Shown here: one piece after another, positions 170 through 16,173 of the stretch
How the letters are laid out: each line of letters opens with the position of its first letter
Numbering within the stretch: position 1 is the first letter of the stretch
Origin: Candidatus Saccharimonadota bacterium
GTDB lineage: Archaea; Micrarchaeota; Micrarchaeia; Micrarchaeales; Micrarchaeaceae
Reading direction: 5' to 3'
DNA length: 32,000 nucleotides
Assembly: GCA_963698035.1 (NCBI GenBank)
Contig: OY969114.1
Coordinates: 150,001 to 182,000, forward strand
Notes under the pieces: model-generated
Seen by the model: the letters and a program-made list of their open reading frames with translations, nothing else
The model's database searches: none
What the model was told of the DNA's origin: nothing
Made by a program: the position numbers and the translations under genes

Positions 170-183
170 TTAAGTTAATTGCT
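170..183. repeat. Left copy of the 14-bp target-site duplication (ttaagttaattgct)
   Basis: Identical 14-mer in direct orientation at 16160-16173. Each copy directly abuts the outer end of a TIR. Confidence 0.9.
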
Positions 184-271
184 GGGATATATACTATCTC
201 TTAAAAACTAGAGTCCTATAAAATAACTTTTACATATGTTATAGACCTAGAGGAAAAACTAGAGTGTTCTC
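184..271. repeat. Left terminal inverted repeat (88 bp), starting gggatatatactatctc
   Basis: Its reverse complement matches 16072-16159 at every position (checked base by base). It contains an internal 12-bp direct repeat aaaaactagagt at 203-214 and 254-265. Confidence 0.97.
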
Positions 272-307
272 AATTTATTAAGAAACGACCTTCCCTGGCT
301 CAAAATC

Positions 308-1039
308 TCAGTCAGTTCTTGTCACATTCAGAATTTTACCGCTATTATTGACGTAAAATACAATTTGGCAGGGATATGTTGCGTTTTGAGGCGCGCAGTT
401 TACATTAGCCTGTTTCACAGACTGGTTGCCATAATACGTATTTGTTATGTTGGTTATAGTGCCTGTCGTGTTCATCTGTTTGAGCCAAGCATTAACTTCA
501 GCAGTTATTGTACTATTAGAGACATTTGCAGGAGCCTGACATTGATTGGTGTACCTATTAACAACATATCCGTTTGTGCAACCACAATCTATAGCACACG
601 AGTTATTTGCACGCTCTTGCGCAGTGCAGATAGCATCTCCACAATAAGCTTTCAAGCATGCACCATAGCTACTGCAGTAGTACCCAGACTGGCAGGAGGT
701 TGCAGTACAAGATAATATGGGTTGGCTACTTGAGGATTGGTTATTCAAGTTAGTATTGGTTAGGAGAAAGAATCCCCCAACTATAACTATTACAACTATA
801 ACGCCAATAATCAAGAAGAACTTTGGTTTGAAATGGCCAAATATTAACTTATTTTCAGCTTTCTTGTTCTCTTTTTGCACTTCGGCCGCAGATCTCGCTT
901 TGCTCTCGACTTTGCTTTCAATAATTTCTAATTTTGCACCGCAGCTATGACAGAATTTTGATTTAATGGAGTTTTTAGCGCCACAGTTAGGGCATTCTAC
1001 TCTTTTTGACTTGATCGTTTTTCTAGTTTTTGCAGCCAT
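308..1039 (-). CDS. Membrane protein with an N-terminal zinc ribbon, one TM helix and a Cys-rich, NxS/T-rich ectodomain
   Basis: CPNCGAKNSIKSKFCHSCGAKL zinc ribbon. TM helix FFLIIGVIVVIVIVGGFFLL. Many Cys residues and N-glycosylation sequons follow. It is the last gene of the leftward operon. Confidence 0.7.
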   Translation of the reverse strand: MAAKTRKTIKSKRVECPNCGAKNSIKSKFCHSCGAKLEIIESKVESKARSAAEVQKENKKAENKLIFGHFKPKFFLIIGVIVVIVIVGGFFLLTNTNLNNQSSSSQPILSCTATSCQSGYYCSSYGACLKAYCGDAICTAQERANNSCAIDCGCTNGYVVNRYTNQCQAPANVSNSTITAEVNAWLKQMNTTGTITNITNTYYGNQSVKQANVNCAPQNATYPCQIVFYVNNSGKILNVTRTD

Positions 1040-1044
1040 TTAAT

Positions 1045-2865
1045 CTACCCATAAGTTAAAGTTGGATCTCCATAAAGCTGCAATTCTTGTGCGGTATCTC
1101 TCTGCAGCTGAGTGGGCGAGTTAGTTAAGAAGTTCCGTTTCATCGAAAGAAAAGCTTGACCTATAGTTTCGCCAGATTTAAATTTATTGTATATGTACTC
1201 TAGATTGGTTGGCGTATAACCTCCAAACCCTTCTTTAGTGTTACCTATATAAGCGGATGCTCCATCCTCTAGCATTTGCAAAGCAAGCGGAGTTGTTCCG
1301 CCGGGTATAAGATAATAGTACAAGGTAGTATTGCTTGGTTCTGTAATCCCATCATAACATGCGGCTGATAGTATTATTGGATTTGTATTAAGTTGTGGTA
1401 TACTTGAAGCAGACCAATAGAGAAAAGTGGAAAGAGTAGTATAATTGCCTGACCACGTACCACAAGAGTATCCGCTACCGTGGCAGTCATAATATTGGAT
1501 TCCGTACACAGAGGATATGTCAGTTTGAAAGTTTGAAGCGCTTGTGCAGCTCGATCCTAAACAGTAAGGTGGAACACTAAGGCAATTAGAGTTACTTGCA
1601 CATGAACTGCCTGTTGTGACTTCTGAAAAAGTATTTACGTCACCTCCAATGAAGGAGTCATGCTGATCATTTAATTCATCTCCAGATATCAGTAGATTAT
1701 TATTGGTCTCCGAATGCCTTTTTGTATCGTTTGATAAGATAGAGGCAATCTCATCAGCATTAGAACCTGGAATTCGCGCAACCACTATTGTTGGAACGCT
1801 GCTATTCGTTAAACTTCCATACGGGTCGTCGGTTGGTATGATGTATGAATTATACCCACTGTCATCTACATTTACTCCTAACGAAGAAATGGTTGGCATT
1901 GGTACAATATTTTCATTACCCAAGATAATTAGATAAGTTGCATTGGTCAAGTATTCTATTCTGTTTATTGTTGATTTAACGCTAACCCAACTGTTCGCAT
2001 TCATGTTAGGATTATATGAACTCAAATTTACATACACATAGCTTAAGCCTTCAGAAGTCAATACACTTTCATAACTAGACAGGGCATTTATGTAGTTAGA
2101 ATCCTGATTAAAGTTAGAACCTATTGTTACAATTACAACATCTTTATGACCAAAACTGTTGTTATATTGAGGGATTGTTGTAGTTGACTGTTGTACAATA
2201 GTAGACTGCGAACCTATGGTTGTCGGCGGAGGAGCGCAGGTGTAACTACCACTTGCACTTGCTATAACACCATATTGGCAGGTCGTACAGGCCGTACCTA
2301 AACCTAATTTCCATACGCCAGTCGCATTCTGGATGCATGGACAGAATGACTGGCCTACCTGAACTTGTGTGTTAGGAGTACACTGATTAGCTGGTTTACT
2401 CACAACATTAACTTGTGCAGTAGAGCTTCCTCCTCCGTTAGAATCTGTTACAGTAACCGTACACTGTTGATTTATCGTCTGATTTGCTCCAGATGTGTAT
2501 ATTGGTATATTTATCTCTTGGTTCTGGCCTGCCGGAACGCTGTATTTTTGTGAACTTACAGTGCTTACCCCCGCGCAATCGCTCAGACTATAGTAAAAGG
2601 TTCCTTGCGAAGTTCCTATATTCTCAACATTAACGTCTATACTTCCGTTGGCCCCAGAACTAAACGGGGCCGAAGTTGCAGACAATATCTTTGGTATACC
2701 TTTTGGTATCACAACTCCAATAAAACTTCCCTTCACTCTTAGTGTAATTTCTGGGTTTGTTGTAGTAAATGCTGTTGGTATAGTTACAAGAAATGCTTGC
2801 TGACCTCCATAATTACTAATCTGTGGTTGCGATGAAGCACCATATACCGTAGCGGTACTTTGCAA
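1045..2865 (-). CDS. Secreted-type protein with a CARDB-like domain and a clan-CD (gingipain/C25-like) peptidase-like domain; no recognisable signal peptide
   Basis: IDVNVENIGTSQGTFYY...CTVTVTD resembles CARDB. YLIILGNENIVPMP...IPTDDPYG, then His-Gly (YYDCHGSG) before Ala-Cys (ILSAACYDG), and a C-terminal LQLYGDPTL resemble C25 peptidases. The only start codon after the upstream in-frame stop is TTG at 2865. Confidence 0.65.
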   Translation of the reverse strand: MQSTATVYGASSQPQISNYGGQQAFLVTIPTAFTTTNPEITLRVKGSFIGVVIPKGIPKILSATSAPFSSGANGSIDVNVENIGTSQGTFYYSLSDCAGVSTVSSQKYSVPAGQNQEINIPIYTSGANQTINQQCTVTVTDSNGGGSSTAQVNVVSKPANQCTPNTQVQVGQSFCPCIQNATGVWKLGLGTACTTCQYGVIASASGSYTCAPPPTTIGSQSTIVQQSTTTIPQYNNSFGHKDVVIVTIGSNFNQDSNYINALSSYESVLTSEGLSYVYVNLSSYNPNMNANSWVSVKSTINRIEYLTNATYLIILGNENIVPMPTISSLGVNVDDSGYNSYIIPTDDPYGSLTNSSVPTIVVARIPGSNADEIASILSNDTKRHSETNNNLLISGDELNDQHDSFIGGDVNTFSEVTTGSSCASNSNCLSVPPYCLGSSCTSASNFQTDISSVYGIQYYDCHGSGYSCGTWSGNYTTLSTFLYWSASSIPQLNTNPIILSAACYDGITEPSNTTLYYYLIPGGTTPLALQMLEDGASAYIGNTKEGFGGYTPTNLEYIYNKFKSGETIGQAFLSMKRNFLTNSPTQLQRDTAQELQLYGDPTLTYG

Positions 2866-2873
2866 AAGTTGAG

Positions 2874-4238
2874 TTACGGCTTGGTTATTGTTGTTAAGAT
2901 CTTGGTATTTTTCAGATGCTTTTGCCTTCCAACAGGACTGAAGCGTATTGCCGACTTTATCTTCGGAGTTTTACCTGTCAATAGCTTGGATAATAGGATA
3001 CTCGGAAGCCCGTAGTATAGCGTTTCCTTTGATGATATATAGTTAAGTCCAACTGTGAAAATCTCATTATAAGCTGCCCTTACTGGTAGTAGGTCATCAT
3101 CTGGCTCAATTTCAACAATAACACAGAATTGTTTCCATTTTTCTAGATTTCTCAGATCATCTAATTTTATTTCGTCTACTAATTTCCGCACGTTTACAGT
3201 ATCATCAACATATTCTATCCTTTCGGCTATGAGGAAATCATACAGCCCCAGCAAAGTAAAAAGACTAGGGTACATGCTTGTAAAATCAAGCGCCGTAACG
3301 AGGCAGGGTTGTTTTCTGATTCTAGCTTCTACTCTCCCGCCATAATAAGCTTGTGATATTTTTCCATATATCGAAGCTGGGACATCAGGATTAAGCACCA
3401 TATAAGGAGTTATGCCAAGCTCTTCAAGAAATGCCTTGCCAATTGAAGCAGAAGAAAAGACGTTAGGTAGCGGTAATTTTACTCCAAATCTATCATATTC
3501 ACTTTTCAAGTGTGTGAACAGCTCGGCAGTAGCCAAAGTGTCCTTTATGTTGTATGCTATGTACTCTTTTGTTATCTTTCCATGCTCTCCGGCCTCGAGT
3601 TTGTAGTATTTCTTATTCCATCGCTCGGCAGCCCGTTTCAAGGAGATATGTTTATCATCAGAAAAAATAATCGCCAGGTTTTGGCAATCGATAAAGTATC
3701 CACGAACTTTTTTAGCGTATTTCGTGGTATGGAATTCTATGCAGGATTCTGCGGTGTTAATGTGCTTTAGTCTAATTGCCGGATGCTTATCTTGTTTACT
3801 GAGTTTGAGTGTGAAGCCACCATTCATCCAACCTCTTGCATAACCATAATTTATAGTTAATCGGGATAAATCAAACGGTAAATTGAAGCCTATGCATGGT
3901 ACTTCGTCCTTATGGACTGTTGGATAAAAAACAGTTTCAAGAAACGTCTCCAGGTCGTATAATCTTATAGTGGGATCATGATTGCAGTAGCTTTGCAATA
4001 CCTCAAGTTCATTTTTAGTAACTTCAACTGGATTATAAAATAGCCCTAACTTCTCTACTATTTCACCACGCATGATAACAAATGATCCAAACGTAAGTGC
4101 CTGGCGGGGGTCGGTTCGAGTTTCGCAGTCAAAGGAAAAGATTCTTTCATAGCTTGGTACACTATATCGCCTTGGCTTGTCTGATCGTGGCTTGTTGTTT
4201 TTCTTTTTGACGTTGAATGCTCTAAAGGCTACTTCCAT
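2874..4238 (-). pseudogene. polB: Protein-primed family-B DNA polymerase, C-terminally truncated: exonuclease domain and motif A only
   Basis: ExoI FSFDCETRTD, ExoII GFNLPFDLSRL, ExoIII YNIKDTLATAELF and motif A LDFTSMYPSL are present. The ORF ends about 125 aa after motif A. Motif B (Kx3NSxYG), motif C (YxDTDS) and KxY are not found in this ORF or in other frames downstream. Confidence 0.8.
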
Positions 4239-4524
4239 GCTTATCCATTCCCCGTTTCTTAAGCCGTTTACCTATCAGTTCAAGCAACGAGCCAATTGAG
4301 ACATCTTCAAAGTCATGTTTATCTTCAGGACTAGCTTTTCTGCTTCTAGCTTTGGGTGGAAAAGCGTTTTGATCGGAGGTTATTTTCCGGTGGCAACAGA
4401 AACAAAGAAGGATTTTTGTTTTGGGGTCGTTTATACGGCCATACGCGTGATGGTACTCACCTAAAACTCTTGGATCTGATTCTTGGCATATAGCACAACT
4501 TCTCTGAGAGGTTTCAGCAAGCAT
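4222..4524 (-). CDS. HNH endonuclease
   Basis: CAICQ...EYHHAYGR...LLCFCCHRKIT fits the CxxC...HH...CxxCH pattern. It overlaps both neighbours, which suggests translational coupling within an operon. Confidence 0.8.
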   Translation of the reverse strand: MLAETSQRSCAICQESDPRVLGEYHHAYGRINDPKTKILLCFCCHRKITSDQNAFPPKARSRKASPEDKHDFEDVSIGSLLELIGKRLKKRGMDKHGSSL

Positions 4525-5092
4525 ATATCTCTCCTCCGAATTCTTGCTCGCGACTTAACTCGATCTCCTTTATCTGCTCTATTCTAGTCTCCAAATGGTG
4601 CTTTTTGCCTTCGGCATCAATGATCACCCTTTTCTTGTACTTTTCAAGAAGGGTCAGGTCACCAGAATATTCTAAAAGCTTCTTAGTATCGTTGAAGTAT
4701 GCCCCTATCAGGTGAGCCATCTCCGAGCCTCTTATAACCACGCTTCTTACCCTGCCTCTCTCGTATATGACAAGGCCTCTTTCGATCCAATCCTGGGGCT
4801 TGGCTTTCCAGCGTCCCTTTCTCTTGCGCAGGTAGCCCCTTAGCTGGGCTTTTACGGTCCGGGGGTCTATTCCCACCTGCCGTGAAGCAATGGTCAAATA
4901 ATGACCATTCCTCACAAGCCGGATCACTTCCAGAGCCCTTACGCGCAGTTCCTTCTCTTTAGGGCTTAACGTGTTCCAGGGCTTAGAGGAGGCAGAGAGG
5001 CGTTTTAAGCCTCTCTTGCGCCTTTTAGGCGTCGACGACATCCTCATCTGCACTCTCTTCGTCCTTTTCGTTCTGTTGCAAGGCCTGTTCAA
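4514..5092 (-). CDS. HTH DNA-binding protein, a casposon-associated type
   Basis: Basic N-terminus followed by LTIASRQVGIDPRTVKAQL (helix-turn-helix). The true start is probably the internal Met at 5047 (MRMSSTPKRRK), because the upstream part overlaps the RHH gene. Confidence 0.6.
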   Translation of the reverse strand: MNRPCNRTKRTKRVQMRMSSTPKRRKRGLKRLSASSKPWNTLSPKEKELRVRALEVIRLVRNGHYLTIASRQVGIDPRTVKAQLRGYLRKRKGRWKAKPQDWIERGLVIYERGRVRSVVIRGSEMAHLIGAYFNDTKKLLEYSGDLTLLEKYKKRVIIDAEGKKHHLETRIEQIKEIELSREQEFGGEIYAC

Positions 5093-5363
5093 GCAGGCTA
5101 CCTACAACTTCACTTTCTGTGAGGTCGCGGTCCTTTGCCAAAGCCTCGATCTTTTCCTTCAAATCTTTGTAGATGTAGACCGGTGCCCGCCCCTTCGAAG
5201 AGGAGGGTTTGCTTATTTCCTGGTCAGCTGTTACCGAGCCCTCGAGAGCCTCAAAGTAGCTCTCCAGACACATTAGTAACTCCTCTCTTTTCCTCGCAAT
5301 GTGAGGATCTCCCTCTGCATTTTTTCCCGATGACGCAGAAAACATCTTTCTTTTTTGTTCCAT
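5025..5363 (-). CDS. Ribbon-helix-helix (CopG/Arc-like) DNA-binding protein, first gene of the leftward operon
   Basis: PVYIYKDLKEKIEALAKDRDLTESEVVGSLLEQAL fits a beta-strand, helix, helix RHH pattern. The tail is acidic. The start is taken at ATG 5363 (MEQKRKM) rather than the ORF-track start at 5426, which would run through the intergenic palindrome. Confidence 0.55.
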   Translation of the reverse strand: MEQKRKMFSASSGKNAEGDPHIARKREELLMCLESYFEALEGSVTADQEISKPSSSKGRAPVYIYKDLKEKIEALAKDRDLTESEVVGSLLEQALQQNEKDEESADEDVVDA

Positions 5364-5454
5364 TTTATTACCAAGTACATAGTAAAGCTTATTAATTTTA
5401 AACGTACCATTAATGTACGTTATCACAGAAAAGCGTACATATAGGGGAACATTT
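5364..5454. promoter_or_regulatory. Divergent control region between the leftward (RHH-HTH-HNH-PolB) and rightward (wHTH, R-M) gene sets, with a palindromic candidate operator
   Basis: aacgtac-cattaat-gtacgtt inverted repeat at 5401-5421, a further gcgtac at 5433-5438, and A/T-rich TATA-like tracts (ttaattttaaa at 5390-5400). Confidence 0.35.
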
Positions 5455-6381
5455 ATGAATACGTTCGAACTTTCTAGGATCTTGGAAGATAAGGTCGTTA
5501 GGAAATACGTTGTCTATTTTCTGCCTGGCCCGATAACAATTACCGAGGTAGCGAAAAAAGTTGGTGTTAAGAACAGAAGTAAGCTCACAAATATGATTCG
5601 TAATTTACACGATTATAAAGTGGATAAAAAGCAGTACAGAGCCAAAAATTCGAAGCCTATTCAATTAGCCGGCAGTAGATTAATCAGCGACTATATGACA
5701 GCACTTTTTAAGTTAAATAAAGATGAAAGAGATTCATTAGTTACATTCATATCGAACGTTACAATAAAGGAAGAAATAATAGACGGTAAAAAGATAATAA
5801 AGAAAGAAAAAACAATCGAAGAATTTTTATTAAAAAACAATAAGGATTTAGATCAACTTCTAAATAAACTGATCTTATGGATTTTTAAAGTAGATACGAT
5901 AACAAAAATGTCTAATATTATTGATCCGGTCTATGTATCTGATTTTGATTCATTGCTTTATGAAGATTATCAATCTCCAGATCCAGAACGAGAATTAGAC
6001 ATAAGAAAGAAGAAACTGGATCTAGCAGTCATAAATAGGAGAAAATGGAAAAAAGCGAGGACTTTAAGACAGGAGATAATGGACTTAGAAATGGCACCAA
6101 GACGAGAGAAATCGGAACTAGAAATAGCTCTAACAGAGTTTGCTAAGCATAATACAAAAGGATTTGCATTTATCAATAAGATAATCAAATCGGACATAAC
6201 TACTTCTATCGGGATCAAAAACCTCTATGAATTAATATATGGAAACTTAAAAGGTTATGAAAAAGAACTAAAGTTTAGACTTGCAATATATGAACGTTTA
6301 ATGAAAGATGACAGTTTGATATATGACCCATATACTCGCATTATTCAAAAAAGAACTGATTTTAGGAAAAGAAGGATCTAG
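5455..6381 (+). CDS. Hypothetical Lys-rich protein with a possible N-terminal winged-helix domain
   Basis: ATG 5455 is preceded by tagggg. PITITEVAKKVGVKNRSKLTNMIRNL resembles a wHTH. The rest is coiled-coil-like with low complexity. The ORF-track start at 5413 lies inside the palindrome. Confidence 0.55.
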   Translation: MNTFELSRILEDKVVRKYVVYFLPGPITITEVAKKVGVKNRSKLTNMIRNLHDYKVDKKQYRAKNSKPIQLAGSRLISDYMTALFKLNKDERDSLVTFISNVTIKEEIIDGKKIIKKEKTIEEFLLKNNKDLDQLLNKLILWIFKVDTITKMSNIIDPVYVSDFDSLLYEDYQSPDPERELDIRKKKLDLAVINRRKWKKARTLRQEIMDLEMAPRREKSELEIALTEFAKHNTKGFAFINKIIKSDITTSIGIKNLYELIYGNLKGYEKELKFRLAIYERLMKDDSLIYDPYTRIIQKRTDFRKRRI

Positions 6382-6512
6382 AAGTGAGGCATCTCTGAGC
6401 TCCTCTTCCCTGTTGGACATCTTATTACTACTTTTCTTTGTTTTACTCCCTATCTAGGAGTTCATTTAAGCTTTACGCACATATGTTTATGAGTATAATA
6501 AAGGGGTGTAGA

Positions 6513-9248: not shown

Positions 9249-9250
9249 TA

Positions 9251-9302: not shown

Positions 9303-9677
9303 ATGGAATATAGAACCGTATCTACAAGGCTCTCGATTGACGAGTTTACTCTCATTAATGACTATTGTAAACGAAAAAGCATCAACCCATCAGCACTAAT
9401 AAAAGAACTCATCTTTGATGAGATAACTCCGTCTATCCCAGCACATATCGCAGGGAAAAATATTATCGAATACGATAAGAAAAAAGACTCCTTTTCTTGG
9501 TGTATTGAGCTAGATAGTGGTGAGCGCATTACAGCCATTAAAAGCATCTCGCCCGAATATATGAGAGATTTGTGCGGTGCCCTCGCAAGCGCTTTAACTT
9601 CAAGGAATGAATCACAAGGTAAGAAAAGAAGGGGTTCCGTCCCTGTACCTAAAAAAATAATCAAGGGGAGAAAATGA
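9303..9677 (+). CDS. Ribbon-helix-helix protein embedded in the R-M operon; candidate controller
   Basis: RTVSTRLSIDEFTLINDYCKRKSINPSALIKELI fits the RHH pattern. Its stop overlaps the hsdS start (ATGA at 9674-9677). Confidence 0.6.
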   Translation: MEYRTVSTRLSIDEFTLINDYCKRKSINPSALIKELIFDEITPSIPAHIAGKNIIEYDKKKDSFSWCIELDSGERITAIKSISPEYMRDLCGALASALTSRNESQGKKRRGSVPVPKKIIKGRK

Positions 9678-10837
9678 AATTTGACTACGTACAGTTAACG
9701 AATTATTTTGATATAGTTAGCCCTGGCATAAAACCATTCAAGGGAAATAAAAAATATATTGCAACTGGTTCGATGGAAACGGGCGAAATTGTGGGTTTCG
9801 ATCAAGTTAGCTATGAATCCAGACCAAGCAGGGCCAATATGGAGACTGTTGAAGACGATATACTGTTTGCTAAAATGAAAGACACCGAAAAAGTTTTCAT
9901 TATCACAAGGAAAGAAACCGAAAATATATATTCTACCGGTTTCAGTATCTTGAGAGTACGAGACCGAACGCAATTTGAACCTAAATTTGTCTACTATTGG
10001 TTGCGATCAGACGCTTTTAAGAGAGTTAAAAACCGAGATTCTACAGGTGCTACACAAAAAGCTCTAAACGAAGGCAGGCTTGCTAAATTCAGAATACCAA
10101 AACCTCCCCTAGAAACCCAAAAGAAACTTGTTGTGATATTTGAGAAGGTAGATAAACTAATAGAATTGCGACTAGATGCAGATAAACTAACTGACGAGTT
10201 CTTAAAAAGTGTTTTTTATGAAATTTTTGGAGATCCTGTTAAAAATACCAAAAAATGGCCTTTAAAGAACCTTAAGGAATTTGGGAAAATAAAAACTGGA
10301 AATACCCCTCCAAGAAAAGAACTAAACTATTATGGGGATTTTATAGATTGGATTAAATCAGATAACCTAAATACACCTTTTACATATTTGACACAAAGTG
10401 AAGAAAAGCTATCTCAAGATGGTGCAAAGGTTGGTAGAATAGCTCCAAAAAGGTCGGTTCTGGTAACTTGTATCGCAGGTAGTTTGTCCGCAATAGGTAA
10501 TGCCGGGATCGCCCAAAAAGATGTTGCGTTTAACCAACAGATCAATGCTATTATACCAAATACGGAAGTAAATGAGTTATTTTTATACTACTTGCTGGTG
10601 AACTCCAAAACTTATATTCAAAGTTTTTCTACACACTCAATGAAAGGGATGATTAGCAAGGGGGTATTTGAAAAAATTAGTCTAATTTATCCAGCGTCCA
10701 AGCTTCAATTTAAATTTGGGGAAATAAGTCAAAATATAGAAATGATGAAAGATAAGCAAAATGAATCTAAAAAACAGATTGATTATTTATTCAAAGCCTT
10801 AATACAAAATACGTTTAGAGGTGATTCACTATGTTAG
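9674..10837 (+). CDS. hsdS: Type I R-M specificity subunit
   Basis: Two target-recognition halves are separated by a conserved helical spacer (PPLETQKKLVVIFEKVDKLIELR). The C-terminal conserved region is QIDYLFKALIQNTF. It overlaps hsdM by 7 nt. Confidence 0.88.
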   Translation: MKFDYVQLTNYFDIVSPGIKPFKGNKKYIATGSMETGEIVGFDQVSYESRPSRANMETVEDDILFAKMKDTEKVFIITRKETENIYSTGFSILRVRDRTQFEPKFVYYWLRSDAFKRVKNRDSTGATQKALNEGRLAKFRIPKPPLETQKKLVVIFEKVDKLIELRLDADKLTDEFLKSVFYEIFGDPVKNTKKWPLKNLKEFGKIKTGNTPPRKELNYYGDFIDWIKSDNLNTPFTYLTQSEEKLSQDGAKVGRIAPKRSVLVTCIAGSLSAIGNAGIAQKDVAFNQQINAIIPNTEVNELFLYYLLVNSKTYIQSFSTHSMKGMISKGVFEKISLIYPASKLQFKFGEISQNIEMMKDKQNESKKQIDYLFKALIQNTFRGDSLC

Positions 10838-12318
10838 ACCAAGAATTAAAAAGTAAAATAAATAAGTTGTGGGATAAGTTTTGGAGTGGTGGTATCTCAA
10901 ATCCACTCATGGCAATCGAGCAAATTTCGTATCTACTTTTCATAAAACGCTTAGAGGATGAAGATGTTCTAAGGCAACAGAATGCAAGACTTACCCGAGA
11001 GCATTATGCCTCTATCTTCCAAGGAAACAGTGATTGCAAGTGGAGTGTCTGGACCGAATATTCTGCAGATAAAATACTGGATCATGTGCGCACTAAGGTA
11101 TTTCCATTCCTAAAAAGCCTTGGCGAAAAGGATTCTCTGTACAATCAATACATGCAAGATGCCGTTTTTGTGATTCCTACTCCGTCAGTGCTTATCGAGG
11201 CCGTGAAAATTATAAATGAACTGAAAATCAAGGAGCAGAATCGTGATACGCAAGGAGACATATACGAGTATCTTCTTTCAGAATTGACAACAGCAGGTAA
11301 AAACGGACAGTTCAGAACTCCACGTCATATAATCAAGATGATGGTGGAGTTATTAAACCCGAAATTTGGTGAGAACATCTGTGATCCGGCGTGTGGCACA
11401 GCTGGTTTCCTTGTTATCGCGTATGAACATATTCTGAAGCTGAATACCTCAAAGGATTTGATAAAGAAAGATGACGTTGGAAATGAATATGGTTTCAAGG
11501 GAGACAAGATAAACTCTACACAATGGGAGATTTTACGCAAGGAAACATTTTATGGTTTTGATATCGATTCAACAATGGTAAGAATTGCGCTCATGAATCT
11601 TATGATGCACGGAATAGATTATCCAAACATAAAACAAATGAATAGTTTATCCACCCGATATACTGAAAATAATCAGTATGATGTAGTCTTGGCAAATCCT
11701 CCATTCAAGGGTAGTATCGACGAATCTGAACTCAGTGATCAGCTTACTATAAAGACGACAAAAACTGAGGTTCTTTTCTTGGAGTTAATGAACCGGGTAA
11801 TGCGTATTAGTGGGAGGTGCGCAGTAATAGTGCCGGATGGTATTCTTTTTGGTGGATCAAAAGCTCATAAACAAATAAAGCAAATGCTTCTAAAGAAATG
11901 CAGGCTAGACGCAGTTATCTCAATGCCTTCTGGTATTTTCAAGCCTTATGCAGGGGTTTCTACAGCTGTACTTGTATTTACAAAGGGGGAAGAGACAAAG
12001 AAGGTCTGGTTCTATGAAATGACCTCAGACGGTTTTACTCTTGATGATAAACGCACTCTCATTGACGGAAAAGGTGATATCCCGGATATAATTGAGAAGT
12101 TCAAGAGACGCGATAAGGAAAGATTTGATGATAGAAAAGCAAAATGCTTCTTCATCCCAATTGAGGAAATAGAAAAAAATGATTTTGACCTTAGCATCTT
12201 AAAATATAAAGAAATTGAACATAAAGAAGTTAAATATGAAAAACCTCAAGCTATAAAGAAGAAAATATTAGAATTAGAGGAGGAAATTATTAGAATTGGA
12301 AACGAAATAGATGTCTAA
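10831..12318 (+). CDS. hsdM: Type I R-M N6-adenine DNA methyltransferase subunit
   Basis: HsdM_N-like N-terminus (LWDKFWSGGISNPLMAIEQISYLLFIKRL), GQFRTPRHI, SAM motif I DPACGTAGFL, and catalytic motif IV LANPPF. Confidence 0.93.
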   Translation: MLDQELKSKINKLWDKFWSGGISNPLMAIEQISYLLFIKRLEDEDVLRQQNARLTREHYASIFQGNSDCKWSVWTEYSADKILDHVRTKVFPFLKSLGEKDSLYNQYMQDAVFVIPTPSVLIEAVKIINELKIKEQNRDTQGDIYEYLLSELTTAGKNGQFRTPRHIIKMMVELLNPKFGENICDPACGTAGFLVIAYEHILKLNTSKDLIKKDDVGNEYGFKGDKINSTQWEILRKETFYGFDIDSTMVRIALMNLMMHGIDYPNIKQMNSLSTRYTENNQYDVVLANPPFKGSIDESELSDQLTIKTTKTEVLFLELMNRVMRISGRCAVIVPDGILFGGSKAHKQIKQMLLKKCRLDAVISMPSGIFKPYAGVSTAVLVFTKGEETKKVWFYEMTSDGFTLDDKRTLIDGKGDIPDIIEKFKRRDKERFDDRKAKCFFIPIEEIEKNDFDLSILKYKEIEHKEVKYEKPQAIKKKILELEEEIIRIGNEIDV

Positions 12319-12329
12319 TTAATGATAAT

Positions 12330-14792
12330 ATGGCTTATAGGAGAAATTTAGGTTTATTTACAAAGGAAGAGCGCGCTAAATGGAGTTATTATCTTTTAGC
12401 ACTCAAGGATATTCTAGACGAAGAGATATGGTCTAGAGAAAATAAGCTCCAAATAGAGCAAGTTCTGAACAGTTTAAATAATGATCAGCTAACCGTTATA
12501 CGTAATAAATACGGATTAGTTGGCACTACTACTGTCATTCAAATTCTTAGTGATAAGAAAAGAGCAATGGACCTCTATTGCTTTTGGCACTTTGCCGAAA
12601 TGCACGTTCCTAGTATAAAAGTTTACTTAAATCTCCCAAGATTGCACGGAATGCCCTTAAAGAAAATTGCTTTTGTAAAAACGCTTACACTTAATGACGA
12701 GGATATGACGGCGATTTTACTTTATAGTCTATGGCGCAGGTATGCGGTATTCGAGAGAAGTTACCAACTTGCAGAAGTCACTGAGCAACAGTTAACTCTA
12801 TTTACACGAAAAATTAGACGTATAAGCACCTTACTATCATACAGTGTTAAAAAGTATGTATTATACGAAAAGCCATACAGGCTAAAAATGCATGGCAAAT
12901 TCCATAATAAGTACATTTACTTATTTATGCGCTACAAAGGCGATGAAGAAGTACTTGCATTTTCAAATAATAGAAGTCAGAGTAAGTATGCTTATAAATT
13001 CGTCATATTAGACCCAGTTTTGAAAACTTTTAATATAGTAGTACATAGTGACAATGAGAGACGAACAATTTTAAATTACATCTCTAAGAAAATTAAATTA
13101 AAAATATTATTTGATTATGGAGATTTGAATGTTTCAAAAGATAAATTCTCTAAACTTTTTGTTTCTGAACCGACAAGAATTCCGATAATAAGTATTACTT
13201 ATGGCAATTCAAAACTCCCTACCGGAGCAAAAATAATGATTCAAGGAAATCCAGCATTAAATCCTATTAACAGGGCATTGGCTTTTCTAAATCCAAACGT
13301 AGTAGAAGCTAATGATATATCAAACATTAAGAGATTCACTATCCTATTTGAAGGACAGCCGGTTAGCATAGCTATAGATAAAATAATAGATGAATTAAAT
13401 TTAGGATACTGTAAATTAAGAATACCGGAGAGAGGGCTGGATTTTGAATTCAGAGAAAAACTGATTAGAAAGTTTAATTCTGATTTTCAAATACCAATAA
13501 ATAAATACTTCTTATTTGGTGAAGGAAATATAGATTATAAGACTATAATCAACTTTCTTCTCAATCAGAAAAATGTAAATTTAAAAGATAAGCCGATAGT
13601 TTATAGACGCACTTTAGACCAAATGTATAACATTGGCTTGTTAGAAAAACCCAAAGAGCATCCAGAACGTTTTTGTGTAAACCAGAGATGCGATAGACGA
13701 TATCGTAGTACCTGGAAGAGAGGACTTTGTATATGCGAGAAGGAACTGGTTATTTTCGGCACATCTTTCAGTGTCAAAATTAATGCAGAGTACGTAACTA
13801 ATTTCATTATAGACTATTTAAACTCTAAGAACTTAAAGTTTACTAAGGCAAAAAGAACATTCAACAAGAGAAAAAGAGATGTAATAGAAATATATACGCC
13901 GAGAGGAAATGTAACAATAATACCAGTCAAATCTACTAAGGTAGAACCGGAATTGTTAGATTATCTAAGAGATAACGAAATTAATTCCGTGTTAGTGCCA
14001 TATCCTAATACTACTGAAACTCAAGAAATAAGAAATAGGAAACATGGCGTTATTCCTGTTTCTGAACTTGTATATACTAAATTATACGAGCAGACTAAAG
14101 ACCCACTTCTTGCTGAGATAAATGGTACTATAGATAACGCCATTGATAGAACTGTTAATAATTACGAATATGCTATAGCGAGGTTAGAAATGAAATCAGG
14201 TTACGACTACCATTTATTTGAAAAGGATATGTATTCACTAATTCATTTTATATCTCCAATAGCACAAAGGCTTGGAGATGACCTTATTGGCAAACGAGTT
14301 TCGGATGGCCTAGTTTCTATTCCACTGGATGAAGAAAGACGGTTCTGTGTAACATGGGATTGCAAGTATACGTCGGATATATATAATTTCAGAGAACCCT
14401 ATAAGAAGACCGTAACATATCTGCAAAAATTATCAAAGTTACCAATCGTTAGAGCTTTCGGAGGCTTAAGAACATTTGTTTTTATCTCTAATAATCCTTC
14501 TGAAAAAAGATTTAGGAAATTCTGTAGAAGACTTATCAAGAATTATAAATGGCGCGGCAAACTGGTTCTATTAAGATCGAGCCAGCTAATAAGCCTTTCA
14601 AAACACTTTAAAAGTATAAGATATAACGTTACATCTTCTCCAGAGTTAAGGTCTAGATATTATGGCGATTTGGCAAATTTATTTTATATGTCCGGAAGAA
14701 AAATACATATAATTAACGACGATGAAGTAGCAAATATAACTAACCAAACATATGAGGCTCCTCGAATACATATAACAAGACCTGATGTCTAA
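12330..14792 (+). CDS. Large orphan protein (820 aa) with a Cys cluster and a C-terminal PD-(D/E)xK-like nuclease signature
   Basis: It starts 12 nt after hsdM on the same strand. CVNQRCDRRY...CICEKE is a possible Zn-binding cluster. The C-terminus reads FEKDMYSLI...RVSDGLVSI...VTWDCKYTS...TFVFISN, which fits E...D...(D/E)xK restriction-endonuclease-fold spacing. I recognise no other family motif. Confidence 0.7.
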   Translation: MAYRRNLGLFTKEERAKWSYYLLALKDILDEEIWSRENKLQIEQVLNSLNNDQLTVIRNKYGLVGTTTVIQILSDKKRAMDLYCFWHFAEMHVPSIKVYLNLPRLHGMPLKKIAFVKTLTLNDEDMTAILLYSLWRRYAVFERSYQLAEVTEQQLTLFTRKIRRISTLLSYSVKKYVLYEKPYRLKMHGKFHNKYIYLFMRYKGDEEVLAFSNNRSQSKYAYKFVILDPVLKTFNIVVHSDNERRTILNYISKKIKLKILFDYGDLNVSKDKFSKLFVSEPTRIPIISITYGNSKLPTGAKIMIQGNPALNPINRALAFLNPNVVEANDISNIKRFTILFEGQPVSIAIDKIIDELNLGYCKLRIPERGLDFEFREKLIRKFNSDFQIPINKYFLFGEGNIDYKTIINFLLNQKNVNLKDKPIVYRRTLDQMYNIGLLEKPKEHPERFCVNQRCDRRYRSTWKRGLCICEKELVIFGTSFSVKINAEYVTNFIIDYLNSKNLKFTKAKRTFNKRKRDVIEIYTPRGNVTIIPVKSTKVEPELLDYLRDNEINSVLVPYPNTTETQEIRNRKHGVIPVSELVYTKLYEQTKDPLLAEINGTIDNAIDRTVNNYEYAIARLEMKSGYDYHLFEKDMYSLIHFISPIAQRLGDDLIGKRVSDGLVSIPLDEERRFCVTWDCKYTSDIYNFREPYKKTVTYLQKLSKLPIVRAFGGLRTFVFISNNPSEKRFRKFCRRLIKNYKWRGKLVLLRSSQLISLSKHFKSIRYNVTSSPELRSRYYGDLANLFYMSGRKIHIINDDEVANITNQTYEAPRIHITRPDV

Positions 14793-14801
14793 TTTAGAAT
14801 A

Positions 14802-16022
14802 TTATAATTTGCCCATTACTTTGTTGTAGATTTTTATCCTCTTACCCTCTCGTATATTCTTTTGTATGTACCATAGCGTAGATTTATTTATTCCTAACTT
14901 TTTACGCTCTTCTGGTGTTATCCCTAGTATATCTTCCTTCACGTTAGTTGAGTCGTTACGTTTTAGTTTTATCTCTGGCAATGTGAAGACCAAGCCTGCA
15001 GCCTTGCCTTGGATATGATTGCTTAGCGCCCTCAGGTTCTCAAAGATCAAGACCTGGTTCTTGTAGCTAGCGTTCCTATGAGTTGTGGTCTCGTTGAAAT
15101 TTATCCTCAATTTCTCGATTAACCTCTTTGCTGTGCCTTCACGAAGTCGTATATGGAAGTTCTCAGTCACGATGAACGATGACTTCTTCAGGGCCTTCTC
15201 CTCAAGTAGCTGGAGAACGGACATGTCAACAAGCCACCTGTACAGCTCCTGGAAGTCATAAACCAAGGGCATCTTGCTCGAGCTTGCTTCATGTAGGAAC
15301 CCTATCGATGGGTCCAGGCCAATGGAGTTTATTGATCGTCTTACCTCACTCTCGAGTATTGAGTAGCCGTAATTAAGCAACGCATTTACCTCGTCCGAGG
15401 CATGCATATTGTGATAAAAACTCTTGTTCTTGCGGCTCTGGAAATTGAATTCAGGCGCGGCCTGCCTGAACACCTTGGCCATCTGCTCCCAGTAGATGTT
15501 GGCCATGCGTGCCTCGTACAGCATCAGGACATTAAGCTTGTTTTTGATTGTCTTGGCGCGCCTTATATCCCTATAGTAGGCATTGAACTCAGTGCTTGAA
15601 CTGATCTTGATGTGCTCCTTATCCAAGACCGTGTAATAAGCAGACAGCTCTTCCAAGAATTCAAGCTCGGACTCAACCTTGCTTTCTATGATTGATAAAG
15701 CTATCTTATACCGCCATGCATCATCCAGGTACGCTTTGTACTGATCCAGCTTCAACTTCCCGGAGATTGGTTCCTTTGGCATGGTTGTACTCAGGAGATT
15801 CCCGTCCCAGTTTAACATGATAATCGGTATGTCATGCTTCATCAGCCATCTTGAGGCATCAAACGAGATGCAGCCGCTATGACCGTCTATTATCACGGAA
15901 TCATAATGGATCTGGTGCGGGTAAAACTCTAGTTTAGTATTCTCAAGCTTATTGGTAATAGTAAGCCTGCGCTGGTCTACATTGATAGATGTTCCAAATC
16001 CAGAGATTAATAATGGATTCAT
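14802..16022 (-). CDS. cas1: Cas1-family integrase (casposase) with a C-terminal HTH
   Basis: N-terminal Cas1 beta domain (LLISGFGTSINVDQRRLTI...DSVIIDGHSGCISFDASRWLMKHDIPIIML). Catalytic-region motifs are LMLYEARMANIYW, NALLNYGYSILESEV, LDPSIGFLHE and LVYDFQELYRWLVD. The C-terminal HTH is GINKSTLWYIQKNIREG. It lies 50 bp inside TIR-R. Confidence 0.92.
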   Translation of the reverse strand: MNPLLISGFGTSINVDQRRLTITNKLENTKLEFYPHQIHYDSVIIDGHSGCISFDASRWLMKHDIPIIMLNWDGNLLSTTMPKEPISGKLKLDQYKAYLDDAWRYKIALSIIESKVESELEFLEELSAYYTVLDKEHIKISSSTEFNAYYRDIRRAKTIKNKLNVLMLYEARMANIYWEQMAKVFRQAAPEFNFQSRKNKSFYHNMHASDEVNALLNYGYSILESEVRRSINSIGLDPSIGFLHEASSSKMPLVYDFQELYRWLVDMSVLQLLEEKALKKSSFIVTENFHIRLREGTAKRLIEKLRINFNETTTHRNASYKNQVLIFENLRALSNHIQGKAAGLVFTLPEIKLKRNDSTNVKEDILGITPEERKKLGINKSTLWYIQKNIREGKRIKIYNKVMGKL

Positions 16023-16060
16023 TCATAGCACCTTTTGTCGAGATAATATCGACGTCAAAG

Positions 16061-16068
16061 TATATAAA
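16061..16068 (-). promoter_or_regulatory. Candidate TATA box (tttatata on the minus strand) for cas1, just inside TIR-R
   Basis: It lies about 40 nt upstream of ATG 16022. A small palindrome gtcga-n7-tcgac (16037-16053) sits between the TATA box and the start codon. Confidence 0.3.
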
Positions 16069-16071
16069 TGA

Positions 16072-16159
16072 GAGAACACTCTAGTTTTTCCTCTAGGTCT
16101 ATAACATATGTAAAAGTTATTTTATAGGACTCTAGTTTTTAAGAGATAGTATATATCCC
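16072..16159. repeat. Right terminal inverted repeat (88 bp)
   Basis: Exact reverse complement of 184-271. Confidence 0.97.
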
Positions 16160-16173
16160 TTAAGTTAATTGCT
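16160..16173. repeat. Right copy of the 14-bp target-site duplication; overlaps the last 4 nt of tRNA-Glu
   Basis: ttaagttaattgct is identical to 170-183. Its innermost 4 nt (16170-16173) encode A70, G71, C72 and A73 of the tRNA. Confidence 0.9.

What the first reader, a model, noticed from the sequence alone, without database searches (positions are those of the whole stretch)
170..16173. Structurally complete casposon inserted at the 3' end of tRNA-Glu
Directly visible: perfect 88-bp TIRs (184-271 and 16072-16159, all 88 positions matching). A perfect 14-bp direct duplication (ttaagttaattgct) lies immediately outside them. Inside are a Cas1 homolog, a protein-primed PolB gene, and HNH, HTH and RHH genes. 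There is no tyrosine or serine integrase, no cas2 and no CRISPR array. Established knowledge: casposons use Cas1 (casposase) for integration, generate roughly 14-15-bp TSDs, carry TIRs, and archaeal family-2 members target tRNA 3' ends. Perfect TIRs and TSDs point to a recent or still-mobile copy. The host looks like a small-genome archaeon, a setting where I am not aware of casposons being characterised. I cannot verify that claim from here.
Basis: partly seen in the sequence, partly recalled or inferred. Interest (0 to 1): 0.9.

Follow-up and report, generated by a model that had tools for sequence, protein, structure and literature searches.

The report
Family-2 casposon with a broken polymerase
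This is a real, freshly inserted casposon (a Cas1-driven transposon) of the already known family 2. It sits at the end of a tRNA-Glu gene in an uncultivated small-genome archaeon, carries a restriction-modification system, and has lost half of its own DNA polymerase gene.

Summary
The repeats are exactly as reported. There are perfect 88-bp TIRs at 184-271 and 16072-16159, and a perfect 14-bp TSD at 170-183 and 16160-16173. The TSD overlaps the last 4 nt of tRNA-Glu(CTC). The element is 15,976 bp at 30-46% GC, against 53% GC in the host.

The 406-aa Cas1 is a casposase. It is 57% identical to the Aciduliprofundum boonei enzyme, 28-30% to family 1, and 17-23% to CRISPR Cas1. It has the family-2 C-terminal HTH domain.

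The target follows the rule measured for A. boonei: a TCAAATC motif lies exactly 8 bp before the TSD. Fifteen related loci, including Micrarchaeota, Nanoarchaeota and Thermoplasmatota genomes, show a tRNA 3' end, about 10 nt, and then a TIR starting GGGRTA.

- The element is not structurally complete. PolB stops at residue 454, before motifs B and C, and abuts a 5'-truncated fusexin-like gene.
- "Protein-primed" is not supported for this PolB.
- A complete type I R-M system (hsdR, hsdS, hsdM) fills 6 kb and was missed.

A related genome has the same tRNA-Glu without the element.

Verdict: a new member of a known kind, of moderate interest.

The parts
170..183 (.). Left copy of the 14-bp target site duplication, TTAAGTTAATTGCT
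   Evidence: Identical to 16160-16173, and the flanking bases differ.
184..271 (+). Left terminal inverted repeat, 88 bp. The outer end is 5'-GGGATATATAC. It contains the 12-nt subrepeat AAAAACTAGAGT at 203-214 and 254-265.
   Evidence: The GGGRTA terminus is shared with related casposons.
308..1039 (-). 243-aa protein with an N-terminal zinc ribbon, one TM helix and a Cys-rich C-terminal part. It is the partner gene of the fusexin-like gene.
   Evidence: PF13240 E 7e-7. TM-like window at residues 65-76. 57% identical to the gene that follows full-length fusexin homologues in L087 and L088.
1045..2865 (-). 606-aa ORF, a 5'-truncated fusexin (Fsx1/HAP2-like) homologue. It keeps domains III-IV plus a C-terminal domain of about 360 aa. 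It has no signal peptide, no domains I/II and no TM. Homology in this frame runs up to about 2943.
   Evidence: NCBIfam Fsx1 E 4e-16. PDB 7P4L E 9e-7. Family profile against 7P4L E 6.5e-17 and against HAP2 about 3e-3. Full-length relative P0365 has about 340 extra N-terminal residues.
2874..4238 (-). 3'-truncated family B DNA polymerase, 454 aa. It has the exonuclease motifs and motif A (LDFTSMYPS) but lacks motifs B and C and the thumb.
   Evidence: PF03175 E 2e-8. Homologues are 650-790 aa and carry KIxANSxYG and Y/F-x-DTDS after the point where this ORF stops. No C-terminal remnant exists in the window.
4222..4524 (-). 100-aa HNH-like nuclease, a family-2 core gene
   Evidence: CxxC...HH...CxxCH pattern. 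Weak PADLOC HNH hits. 44-60% identical to the gene directly upstream of PolB in L004, L021, L023 and L035.
4514..5092 (-). 192-aa conserved HTH protein, a family-2 core gene
   Evidence: Weak HTH_23 hit. Homologues at 30-51% identity lie next to PolB in 23 of the related loci.
5025..5426 (-). 133-aa (or shorter) ribbon-helix-helix, Arc-like DNA-binding protein
   Evidence: phrog_582 Arc-like repressor E 1.8e-5. Called as 112 aa in the Logan contig.
5413..6381 (+). 322-aa protein of unknown function, the first gene of the low-GC cargo block
   Evidence: No significant family in Pfam, PADLOC, NCBIfam or PHROGs. GC 0.316.
6438..9248 (+). HsdR, type I restriction subunit
   Evidence: ResIII E 2e-33, with HSDR_N, Helicase_C and EcoEI_R_C. 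PADLOC REase_I E 9e-106. 82% identical to a Micrarchaeota gene in L024.
9303..9677 (+). 124-aa RHH / RelB-like small protein inside the R-M operon
   Evidence: DUF6290 E 6e-5. RelB_antitoxin E 4e-4. Both are below the curated cut-offs.
9674..10837 (+). HsdS, type I specificity subunit with two target-recognition domains
   Evidence: PF01420 E 4.6e-28, 2 stretches.
10831..12318 (+). HsdM, type I N6-adenine methyltransferase
   Evidence: N6_Mtase E 1.3e-64 and HsdM_N E 1e-14.
12330..14792 (+). 820-aa protein of unknown function, the last gene of the cargo block
   Evidence: No hit in Pfam, PADLOC, NCBIfam, PHROGs or PDB.
14802..16022 (-). Casposase: a Cas1 core plus a C-terminal HTH. The catalytic E170, H244, D256 and E259 are conserved.
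   Evidence: PF01867 E 2.8e-57. PDB 6OPM M. mazei casposase E 2e-65 over residues 2-398. 56.7% identical to the A. boonei casposase. Falls within family 2 in an NJ tree.
16072..16159 (-). Right terminal inverted repeat, 88 bp
   Evidence: Perfect reverse complement of 184-271.
16160..16173 (.). Right, tRNA-proximal copy of the TSD. Its last 4 nt (16170-16173) are the 3' end AGCA of tRNA-Glu.
16170..16244 (-). tRNA-Glu(CTC), the integration target. It is left intact by the insertion.
   Evidence: ARAGORN. Rfam 55.5 bits. An identical tRNA in relative L085 has no casposon next to it.
16182..16188 (-). TCAAATC (T-psi-C arm), the predicted 'leader' recognition motif at positions -15 to -9 relative to the TSD border
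   Evidence: Read directly from the sequence. The motif and its 8-bp spacing were mapped experimentally for the A. boonei casposase (PMC6614799).

Best explanation
Window 184-16159 is a family-2 casposon of the Aciduliprofundum boonei (AciBoo-C1) subgroup. It inserted recently, immediately downstream of tRNA-Glu(CTC).

Inferred mechanism:
1. The element's own casposase (Cas1 core plus C-terminal HTH) binds the 3' ends of the TIRs (...TATATCCC-3').
2. It reads the T-psi-C-arm sequence TCAAATC of the tRNA gene as a leader, 8 bp upstream of the cut site.
3. It joins one TIR 3'-OH at the leader/TSD border, inside the last 4 nt of the tRNA gene.
4. It joins the other 3'-OH 14 bp away on the opposite strand.
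5. Gap repair duplicates the 14 bp, and the tRNA stays intact.

Shown here: the anatomy, the casposase family placement, the target geometry, the absence of the element at the same tRNA in a relative, and the same layout at many other tRNA genes. Inferred by analogy with the A. boonei and M. mazei enzymes: the chemistry and the recognition steps.

The element is no longer self-synthesizing. A rearrangement joined the 5' 60% of polB to the 3' two-thirds of a fusexin-like gene, removing polymerase motifs B and C. It could still integrate through its own casposase. Any copying would need a host polymerase or one from another element.

A lower-GC block of about 9.4 kb sits between the HTH/HNH/PolB module and cas1, which are close together (1-3 kb apart) in most of the related loci. 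The block carries a complete type I R-M system. The element therefore also acts as a vehicle for a defence system.
For: - TIR and TSD are exact.
- GC is 0.30-0.46 inside the element against 0.53 in the host.
- Cas1 matches PF01867 at E 2.8e-57.
- The best solved relative is the M. mazei casposase 6OPM, E 2e-65 over residues 2-398 including the HTH. The best CRISPR Cas1 reaches E 1.7e-24.
- Core identity is 56.7% to A. boonei, 55.9% to M. arvoryzae, 36-40% to other family 2, 28-30% to family 1, 23-26% to family 3 and 17-23% to CRISPR Cas1 (reference rows from Krupovic 2014 Additional file 2).
- The NJ tree nests the protein in family 2.
- The family-2 definition used is a casposase HTH fusion, HNH, two HTH proteins, and a tRNA 3' end overlapped by 4-7 nt (PMC4046053).
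- TCAAATC lies 8 bp before the TSD, matching the mapped A. boonei motif (PMC6614799).
- Fifteen related loci show a tRNA 3' end, about 10 nt, then a GGGRTA... TIR. Three were checked for matching 14-bp TSDs (L005, L020, L023).
- Relative L085 is syntenic at about 80% nt identity from window 16170 to 31123. Synteny ends exactly at the tRNA 3' end, and no TIR follows.
- PolB truncation.
- An independent Logan contig of 15,860 bp equals the inter-TIR 15,800 bp plus 2 x 30.
- R-M genes.
- Mini-casposons without PolB transpose in vivo in M. mazei (PMC10359463).
Against: - No clean empty site was recovered. The left flank (1-169) has no counterpart in the 1.7 kb available downstream of the tRNA in L085. 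The reconstructed site and the TIR gave 0 exact hits in JGI metagenomes and IMG/VR.
- No excised or second copy was seen, so current mobility is not shown.
- Inner nodes of the NJ tree are weakly supported. The family-2 clade has 70/100 support.
- The +1/+2 CC dinucleotide important for A. boonei is AG here.
- The HEAT-repeat HTH protein described for family 2 was not identified.
- PolB family membership rests only on the N-terminal 454 aa and on homologues' motifs.
Confidence: 0.9

Rival explanations
1. A family-1 (or family 1/2 hybrid) casposon. In this reading a protein-primed PolB replicates the element from terminal proteins bound to the TIRs.
For: Pfam assigns the PolB fragment to PF03175, 'organellar and viral' PolB, E 2e-8. 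Four of 7 family members hit PF03175.
Against: - The casposase is only 28-30% identical to family-1 enzymes, against 57% to A. boonei.
- It has the C-terminal HTH that family 1 lacks (PMC8464041).
- Family-1-type loci in the fetched set (for example N. devanaterra, L054) gave no match to this PolB at E 1e-5.
- The PolB family profile's best solved matches are archaeal and eukaryotic primer-dependent PolBs. No phi29-type enzyme appears at E <= 1.
- Four of 7 members also hit PF00136.
- Three of the 6 aligned full-length homologues carry a CDTDS motif C. This is the signature of the PolB_CDTDS group that contains the A. boonei casposon PolB (PMC7544198).
- The target is a tRNA, not ef-2.
Confidence: 0.04
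2. An immobilised casposon remnant. In this reading the element can no longer move and is kept because its type I R-M system, and perhaps the 820-aa gene, benefit the host. It would be a defence island with fossil ends.
For: The PolB is truncated, so the element is not self-synthesizing. The cargo block from the 322-aa ORF to the 820-aa ORF takes up well over half of the element. No second copy or empty site was found.
Against: The 88-bp TIRs and the 14-bp TSD are perfect. The casposase ORF is intact with catalytic residues and HTH. Both argue for a very recent event and retained integration capacity. PolB is dispensable for casposase-driven translocation of mini-casposons (PMC10359463). The truncated fusexin ORF still has 606 uninterrupted codons, which suggests the rearrangement is also young.
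Confidence: 0.05
3. Not a casposon insertion. Either it is a plasmid or provirus integrated by a tyrosine or serine recombinase at a tRNA att site, or it is an assembly chimera of low-GC foreign DNA.
For: tRNA 3' ends are classic att sites. There is a sharp GC break. A tyrosine-integrase fragment accompanies the fusexin module in another contig, L088.
Against: - No integrase domain turned up in any scanned ORF.
- The direct repeat is flanked on the inside by 88-bp inverted repeats, which recombinase att sites do not produce.
- The direct repeat has the 14-bp length typical of casposase products.
- The same junction architecture recurs in the related genomes checked (L005, L020, L023).
- An independent Logan assembly gives a contig whose length fits the inner region exactly.
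Confidence: 0.01

Closest known systems
AciBoo-C1, the family-2 casposon of Aciduliprofundum boonei T469 (Krupovic 2014; Hickman & Dyda 2015; Beguin 2016, 2019)
   Same: The casposase core is 56.7% identical and has the C-terminal HTH. The core gene set is HNH + HTH + PolB. The TSD is 14-15 bp. Insertion is at a tRNA 3' end with the tRNA preserved. TCAAATC lies 8 bp upstream of the TSD. The TIR 3' end is C-rich. It carries a DNA methyltransferase as cargo.
   Different: The target is tRNA-Glu, not tRNA-Pro, and the first TSD bases are AG, not CC. The TIR is 88 bp against 37 bp. The cargo is a complete type I R-M system rather than a single MTase. PolB is truncated. The host is a small-genome uncultivated archaeon rather than a thermoacidophilic euryarchaeon.
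NitNCS1-C1, a family-2 casposon in Ca. Nitrosotalea okcheonensis (Krupovic 2019, PMC6563490)
   Same: It is a family-2 element outside the Euryarchaeota, inserted at a tRNA gene, with a PolB gene that is not intact. Nitrosotalea and Nitrosopumilus casposases are 52-56% identical to this one.
   Different: There PolB is split into two fragments that may still function. Here the whole C-terminal half is gone. The tRNA differs (Pro), there is no R-M operon, and a WYL protein is present there.
MetMaz-C1, the Methanosarcina mazei family-2 casposon (structure 6OPM; in vivo translocation, PMC10359463)
   Same: The casposase aligns end to end, E 2e-65. It has a tRNA (Leu) 3'-end target, an upstream motif requirement and a 14-bp TSD. 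It shows that TIR + TSD + casposase suffice for translocation.
   Different: Core identity is only 36%, which places it in a different subclade of family 2.
NitAR1-C1, the family-1 casposon of Ca. Nitrosopumilus koreensis
   Same: It has Cas1-mediated integration, TIRs, a TSD of 13 bp and a short leader requirement.
   Different: Casposase identity is 28% and it has no HTH. It has a protein-primed PolB and targets the ef-2 3' end. This element is not a member of that family.
Fsx1 archaeal fusexins on integrated mobile elements (Moi 2022, PMC9259645). This applies to the 606-aa ORF only.
   Same: It is homologous over domains III-IV, including the conserved domain III cysteines. It is located on a mobile element. 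It is followed by a conserved Zn-ribbon membrane gene, as in L087 and L088.
   Different: Domains I/II, the fusion loop, the signal peptide and the TM anchors are absent, and a C-terminal domain of about 360 aa takes the place of the TM region. The carrier is a casposon, not a XerC/D-type element.

Membership tests
Casposon (superfamily) | A Cas1-family integrase that groups with casposases rather than CRISPR Cas1, with catalytic residues intact | tested here: met
   PF01867 E 2.8e-57. 6OPM casposase E 2e-65 against the best CRISPR Cas1 at 1.7e-24; E170, H244, D256 and E259 align with conserved positions. Identities. Tree.
Casposon (superfamily) | Terminal inverted repeats flanked by a target site duplication of about 14-15 bp | tested here: met
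   88/88 TIR and 14/14 TSD.
Casposon (superfamily) | Encodes its own family B DNA polymerase (self-synthesizing) | tested here: not met
   Only a 454-aa N-terminal fragment with the exonuclease motifs and motif A. Motifs B and C and the thumb are absent, and no remnant exists in the window. It is a derived, PolB-defective copy of a PolB-encoding lineage, since relatives have full-length genes.
Casposon (superfamily) | No cas2, no CRISPR array and no other cas genes nearby | tested here: met
   Pfam scans of the element's ORFs and of ten flanking host ORFs found none. No array was found by TRF. Not every ORF of the window was scanned.
Casposon (superfamily) | Demonstrated transposition (excision or integration) | not testable with these tools
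   Indirect evidence only: the element is absent at the identical tRNA-Glu in relative L085, and the ends are perfect.
Family 2 casposons | Casposase with a C-terminal HTH fusion | tested here: met
   Residues 340-398 align with the HTH region of the M. mazei casposase 6OPM. The feature is defined in PMC4046053.
Family 2 casposons | Casposase clusters with family-2 references | tested here: met
   56.7% to AciBoo and 55.9% to MetArv, against 28-30% to family 1 and 23-26% to family 3. Family-2 clade support in the NJ tree is 70/100. An ML tree was not run.
Family 2 casposons | Core genes HNH nuclease plus two HTH proteins, one with HEAT repeats | tested here: inconclusive
   The HNH-like 100-aa and HTH 192-aa genes are present and conserved next to PolB in relatives. 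The second DNA-binding protein here is RHH/Arc-like. No HEAT-repeat protein was recognised.
Family 2 casposons | PolB of the family-2 type (PolB3-related / PolB_CDTDS), not protein-primed | tested here: inconclusive
   Three of 6 full-length homologues have a CDTDS motif C. The family profile's best PDB matches are archaeal primer-dependent PolBs. Pfam hits are split between PF03175 and PF00136. No direct comparison with the A. boonei PolB was possible.
Family 2 casposons | Integration at a tRNA gene 3' end, overlapping 4-7 nt and leaving the tRNA intact | tested here: met
   The TSD overlaps 4 nt of tRNA-Glu. Related loci show the same geometry at Glu, Pro, Arg, Val, Ser, Met, Ile and Thr tRNAs.
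Family 2 casposons | Leader motif TCAAATC 8 bp upstream of the TSD (mapped for the A. boonei enzyme) | tested here: met
   GGTTCAAATC-CCGATCGG-|AGCA... (PMC6614799). Its presence was tested; recognition by this enzyme was not.
Family 1 casposons | Protein-primed PolB, a compact casposase without HTH, and a target at the 3' end of ef-2 or other protein genes | tested here: not met
Type I restriction-modification system (cargo) | hsdR, hsdM and hsdS all present and full length | tested here: met
   Domain complements. Activity was not tested.
Fusexin (Fsx1/HAP2) family (606-aa ORF) | Ectodomain with domains I-II (fusion loop) and III, plus a membrane anchor | tested here: not met
   Only domains III-IV are retained. 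There is no signal peptide or TM. Homologous full-length genes exist elsewhere. This ORF is a remnant, not a functional member.

The most novel reading that the evidence does not exclude
The fusexin remnant lies inside the TIRs and abuts the broken polB. The lineage may therefore once have carried a full-length HAP2-like fusogen together with its Zn-ribbon membrane partner. That would be a casposon equipped with a cell-fusion or envelope module, and it could explain how such elements move between cells. One example would be movement between episymbiotic small-genome archaea and Thermoplasmatota. That phylum includes the known hosts of some Micrarchaeota (my own knowledge, not tested here), and it shares this casposase clade (L025, L030, L033).
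Probability: 0.2. Interest if true: 0.7.

Novelty: new member of a known kind. Interest (0 to 1): 0.38.

Why it matters
This extends the experimentally understood A. boonei-type family-2 casposons to an uncultivated archaeon with a contig of only 0.78 Mb. The same tRNA-end targeting rule (TCAAATC, 8 bp, 14-bp TSD) holds across at least eight tRNA species and several archaeal phyla in public genomes, including genomes labelled DPANN. No searchable paper describes casposons in those lineages.

The copy is useful for experiments. It has perfect ends, an intact casposase and a defined target, and it is naturally PolB-deficient. It can therefore test whether casposase-only mobility occurs in nature.

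It also documents casposons as carriers of a whole type I R-M system. It further suggests, through a remnant, that they may carry fusexin genes.

None of this overturns current views. It is a solid catalogue entry with one intriguing side lead.

Tried and rejected
- Empty-site search. The 30-nt string of TSD plus tRNA end gave 0 hits in JGI metagenome contigs.
- TIR search. The 28-nt TIR end gave 0 hits in JGI metagenomes and in IMG/VR.
- IMG/VR scans with the casposase profile and the fusexin-like profile found no relatives.
- Host identification by synteny with fetched Micrarchaeota loci failed. An exact look-up of ArgRS failed, probably because of start-codon choice. Cluster look-ups returned no names. 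The ArgRS homologue search gave mixed labels, so the host phylum stays unresolved.
- The family-1 hypothesis came from the Pfam 'organellar/viral PolB' hit and the Nitrosopumilus relatives. I rejected it after comparison with the reference casposase rows of Krupovic 2014.
- I searched for a PolB C-terminal remnant with a full-length homologue at E <= 10. None was found.
- The 820-aa and 322-aa cargo proteins had no hit in Pfam, PADLOC, NCBIfam, PHROGs or PDB. Their function is left open.
- Bootstrap values from the Biopython NJ tree are low for inner nodes, and I do not rely on them.
- No structure prediction was run. Deep alignments could not be built from admissible sequences for the unknown proteins.

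Full report
**Observation**

The reported repeats are exact. The reverse complement of 184-271 equals 16072-16159 at all 88 positions. TTAAGTTAATTGCT occurs at 170-183 and 16160-16173 with different bases on both outer sides, so the duplication is exactly 14 bp. A 25-nt TIR end occurs only at these two places, against 0 expected in 100 shuffles.

ARAGORN and Rfam both call tRNA-Glu(CTC) at 16170-16244 on the minus strand. The tRNA-proximal TSD copy therefore supplies the last four nucleotides (AGCA) of the tRNA. The element measures 15,976 bp from TIR to TIR. Its GC content is 0.30-0.46, against 0.53 for the 16 kb of host DNA to the right.

A Logan contig assembled from run ERR10755947 is 15,860 bp long. 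That equals the 15,800 bp between the TIRs plus 30 nt at each end, as expected when a k=31 assembler breaks at an inverted repeat (k=31 is my assumption about the Logan assembler). This supports the inner structure independently.

**Gene content**

On the minus strand, from the left end:
- A 243-aa zinc-ribbon/TM/Cys-rich protein (308-1039).
- A 606-aa ORF (1045-2865).
- A 454-aa PolB fragment (2874-4238).
- A 100-aa HNH-like protein.
- A 192-aa HTH protein.
- An Arc-like RHH protein.

- A 322-aa unknown protein.
- HsdR (936 aa, with the HSDR_N, ResIII, Helicase_C and EcoEI_R_C domains).
- A small RHH protein.
- HsdS with two recognition domains.
- HsdM.
- An 820-aa unknown protein.

The 406-aa Cas1 gene (14802-16022, minus strand) closes the element.

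No integrase or cas2 domain turned up in the ORFs scanned with Pfam, which covered the element's ORFs and ten flanking host ORFs. No CRISPR-like array was found.

**Which casposon family**

The Cas1 matches PF01867 at E 2.8e-57. Its best solved relative is the Methanosarcina mazei casposase 6OPM, at E 2e-65. That alignment runs from residue 2 to 398 and so includes the C-terminal HTH. The best CRISPR Cas1 reaches only 1.7e-24. The conserved E, H and D..E positions are present.

I took reference sequences from the Cas1 alignment published with the original casposon paper (PMC4046053, Additional file 2). Core identities are:

| Reference | Identity |
|---|---|
| A. boonei casposase (family 2) | 56.7% |
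| Methanocella arvoryzae (family 2) | 55.9% |
| Other family-2 enzymes | 36-40% |
| Family 1 (Nitrosopumilus) | 28-30% |
| Family 3 | 23-26% |
| CRISPR Cas1 | 17-23% |

An NJ tree nests the protein inside family 2, next to AciBoo and MetArv. The inner nodes are weakly supported.

The literature defines family 2 by the casposase-HTH fusion, an HNH nuclease, two HTH proteins and insertion at tRNA 3' ends overlapping 4-7 nt. Family 1 lacks the HTH and targets ef-2. This element is therefore a family-2 casposon of the AciBoo-C1 subgroup.

**Target site**

Read in tRNA orientation, the junction is GGTTCAAATC-CCGATCGG | AGCAATTAACTTAA | GGGATATATAC.... Beguin et al. mapped the A. boonei casposase's target determinant to TCAAATC, located 8 bp upstream of the leader/TSD border (PMC6614799). 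Here the same heptamer, from the T-psi-C arm, lies exactly 8 bp upstream.

A genome-collection scan returned 568 relatives of the casposase. In 15 related loci with a nearby tRNA, the tRNA 3' end is followed after about 10 nt by a TIR beginning GGGRTA. TTCAAATC or TTCGAATC sits at the same distance. The tRNAs are Glu, Pro, Val, Ser, Arg, Met, Ile and Thr.

Three loci were checked in full and have matching 14-bp TSDs:
- L005, Micrarchaeota, tRNA-Glu(TTC), TSD AGCATGCTGAACAA.
- L020, Micrarchaeota, tRNA-Pro.
- L023, Nanoarchaeota, tRNA-Arg, with a second TIR 14 nt away that marks a tandem insertion.

**Is it an insertion?**

A related genome (L085, GCA_009712145.1; ArgRS 82% identical) is collinear with the window at about 80% nucleotide identity from 16170 to 31123. 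The similarity stops exactly at the 3' end of an identical tRNA-Glu. In L085 the tRNA is followed by CCA and unrelated genes, with no TIR.

This shows that the element is absent at that tRNA in a relative. It is not a clean empty site. The window's left flank is not found in the 1.7 kb that remain before the L085 contig ends. Exact searches for the reconstructed site and for the TIR in JGI metagenomes and IMG/VR found nothing.

**The polymerase**

Homologues of the PolB fragment are 650-790 aa long. In the alignment, the window protein follows them through the exonuclease motifs and motif A (LDFTSMYPS). It ends at residue 454, just before motif B (KIxANSxYG) and motif C (Y/F-x-DTDS). A full-length homologue matches the window only with its residues 1-456, and nothing else matches even at E <= 10. 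The polymerase cannot be active, so "structurally complete" is wrong.

The "protein-primed" label is also unsupported:
- Pfam hits across the family split between PF03175 and PF00136.
- The family profile's best solved matches are archaeal and eukaryotic primer-dependent PolBs, with no phi29-type enzyme.
- Three of the 6 aligned full-length homologues carry CDTDS. This is the signature of the group that contains the A. boonei casposon PolB (PMC7544198).

A family-2 casposon with a non-intact PolB has a precedent in NitNCS1-C1. Mini-casposons without PolB translocate in M. mazei.

**What abuts the broken polymerase**

The 606-aa ORF hits NCBIfam Fsx1 (fusexin 1) at E 4e-16 and the Fsx1 crystal structure 7P4L at E 9e-7, over domain III with both conserved cysteines.

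An exhaustive search found 372 relatives. In many fusexin-sized proteins, positions 300-550 align with the ORF's first 240 residues. All ten that I scanned hit Fsx1 collinearly. A profile of the family matches 7P4L at E 6.5e-17 over residues 134-488, and eukaryotic HAP2 at about 3e-3.

The full-length relative P0365 (944 aa, 60% identical) has about 340 additional N-terminal residues, including a signal-like stretch. The window ORF has neither these residues nor any TM segment. The ORF is therefore a 5'-truncated fusexin homologue. One rearrangement near 2866-2943 appears to have removed the 3' part of polB and the 5' part of this gene.

In two other contigs, the full-length gene is followed by a homologue (57% identical) of the 243-aa zinc-ribbon gene. 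Neither contig shows casposon hallmarks, and one has a tyrosine-integrase fragment.

**Host**

The source contig is 776,853 bp. ArgRS has unnamed relatives at 82% and 71% identity. Named relatives are labelled Marsarchaeota (53-54%) and Micrarchaeota or Micrarchaeia (47-50%). The closest casposase (78%) is from a Micrarchaeaceae MAG. The host is plausibly a small-genome archaeon, but the lineage is not resolved.

No paper in the searchable library describes casposons in Micrarchaeota or DPANN archaea. Genomes with those labels do carry related casposase loci.

**Verdict**

This is a real, recent family-2 casposon insertion with an intact integration apparatus, a dead polymerase and a type I R-M cargo. 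It is a new member of a known kind. Its interest is moderate, and comes mainly from three things: the natural PolB-less state, the generality of the tRNA targeting rule, and the fusexin remnant.

Noticed in passing
window 1045-2865 (-), homology up to about 2943; partner gene 308-1039 (-): A 5'-truncated homologue of archaeal fusexin Fsx1 (HAP2-like fusogen) retaining domains III-IV. It directly abuts the truncated polB and is followed by a zinc-ribbon membrane gene. Full-length versions of this gene pair occur in other contigs (L087, L088) without casposon hallmarks.
   Followed up: yes
window 6438-12318 (+), with 5413-6381 and 12330-14792: A complete type I R-M operon plus two large proteins of unknown function forms a lower-GC block (0.32-0.36). 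It sits between the casposon's HTH/HNH/PolB module and cas1, which are close together (1-3 kb apart) in most of the related loci. The hsdR is 82% identical to a gene about 4 kb from the PolB gene of a related locus in a Micrarchaeota genome (L024, positions 2-1768).
   Followed up: partly
window 203-214 and 254-265 (mirrored in 16072-16159): Each 88-bp TIR contains a 12-nt direct subrepeat, AAAAACTAGAGT, 51 nt apart. These are possible binding sites for the element's HTH or RHH proteins.
   Followed up: no
window 16170-16244 (-): tRNA-Glu(CTC) has a C3-A70 mismatch in the acceptor stem and no encoded CCA. The identical tRNA in relative L085 is followed by CCA, so the casposon insertion replaced the encoded CCA with TSD sequence.
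   Followed up: partly
window 18715-18773 (-) and 26076-26162 (+): Rfam reports a marginal 59-nt tRNA match (30.1 bits, gathering score 29) that ARAGORN does not call. Conversely, ARAGORN's tRNA-Leu(CAG) is not reported by Rfam at the gathering threshold.
   Followed up: no
window 28371-29190 (-): The RIO kinase gene is split into two overlapping ORFs (148 and 158 aa), whereas relative L085 has a single 257-aa gene. This is either a frameshift or a sequencing error.
   Followed up: partly
L023 4227-4343: [quoted passage not shown] This is the signature of a tandem insertion or a remnant reusing the same TSD.
   Followed up: partly
L085 15160-16890: In the related genome, the DNA downstream of the identical tRNA-Glu encodes RHH_12, PRiA4_ORF3-like and YgjP-like proteins that are not syntenic with the window. 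This may be a different mobile element at the same tRNA.
   Followed up: no
L025, L030, L033 (Thermoplasmatota, Cuniculiplasmataceae): The same casposase clade (50-57% identity) occurs in Thermoplasmatota, including a Cuniculiplasmataceae genome. That lineage is known from the literature (my own knowledge) to host Micrarchaeota episymbionts, so symbiont-host exchange of casposons is conceivable.
   Followed up: no
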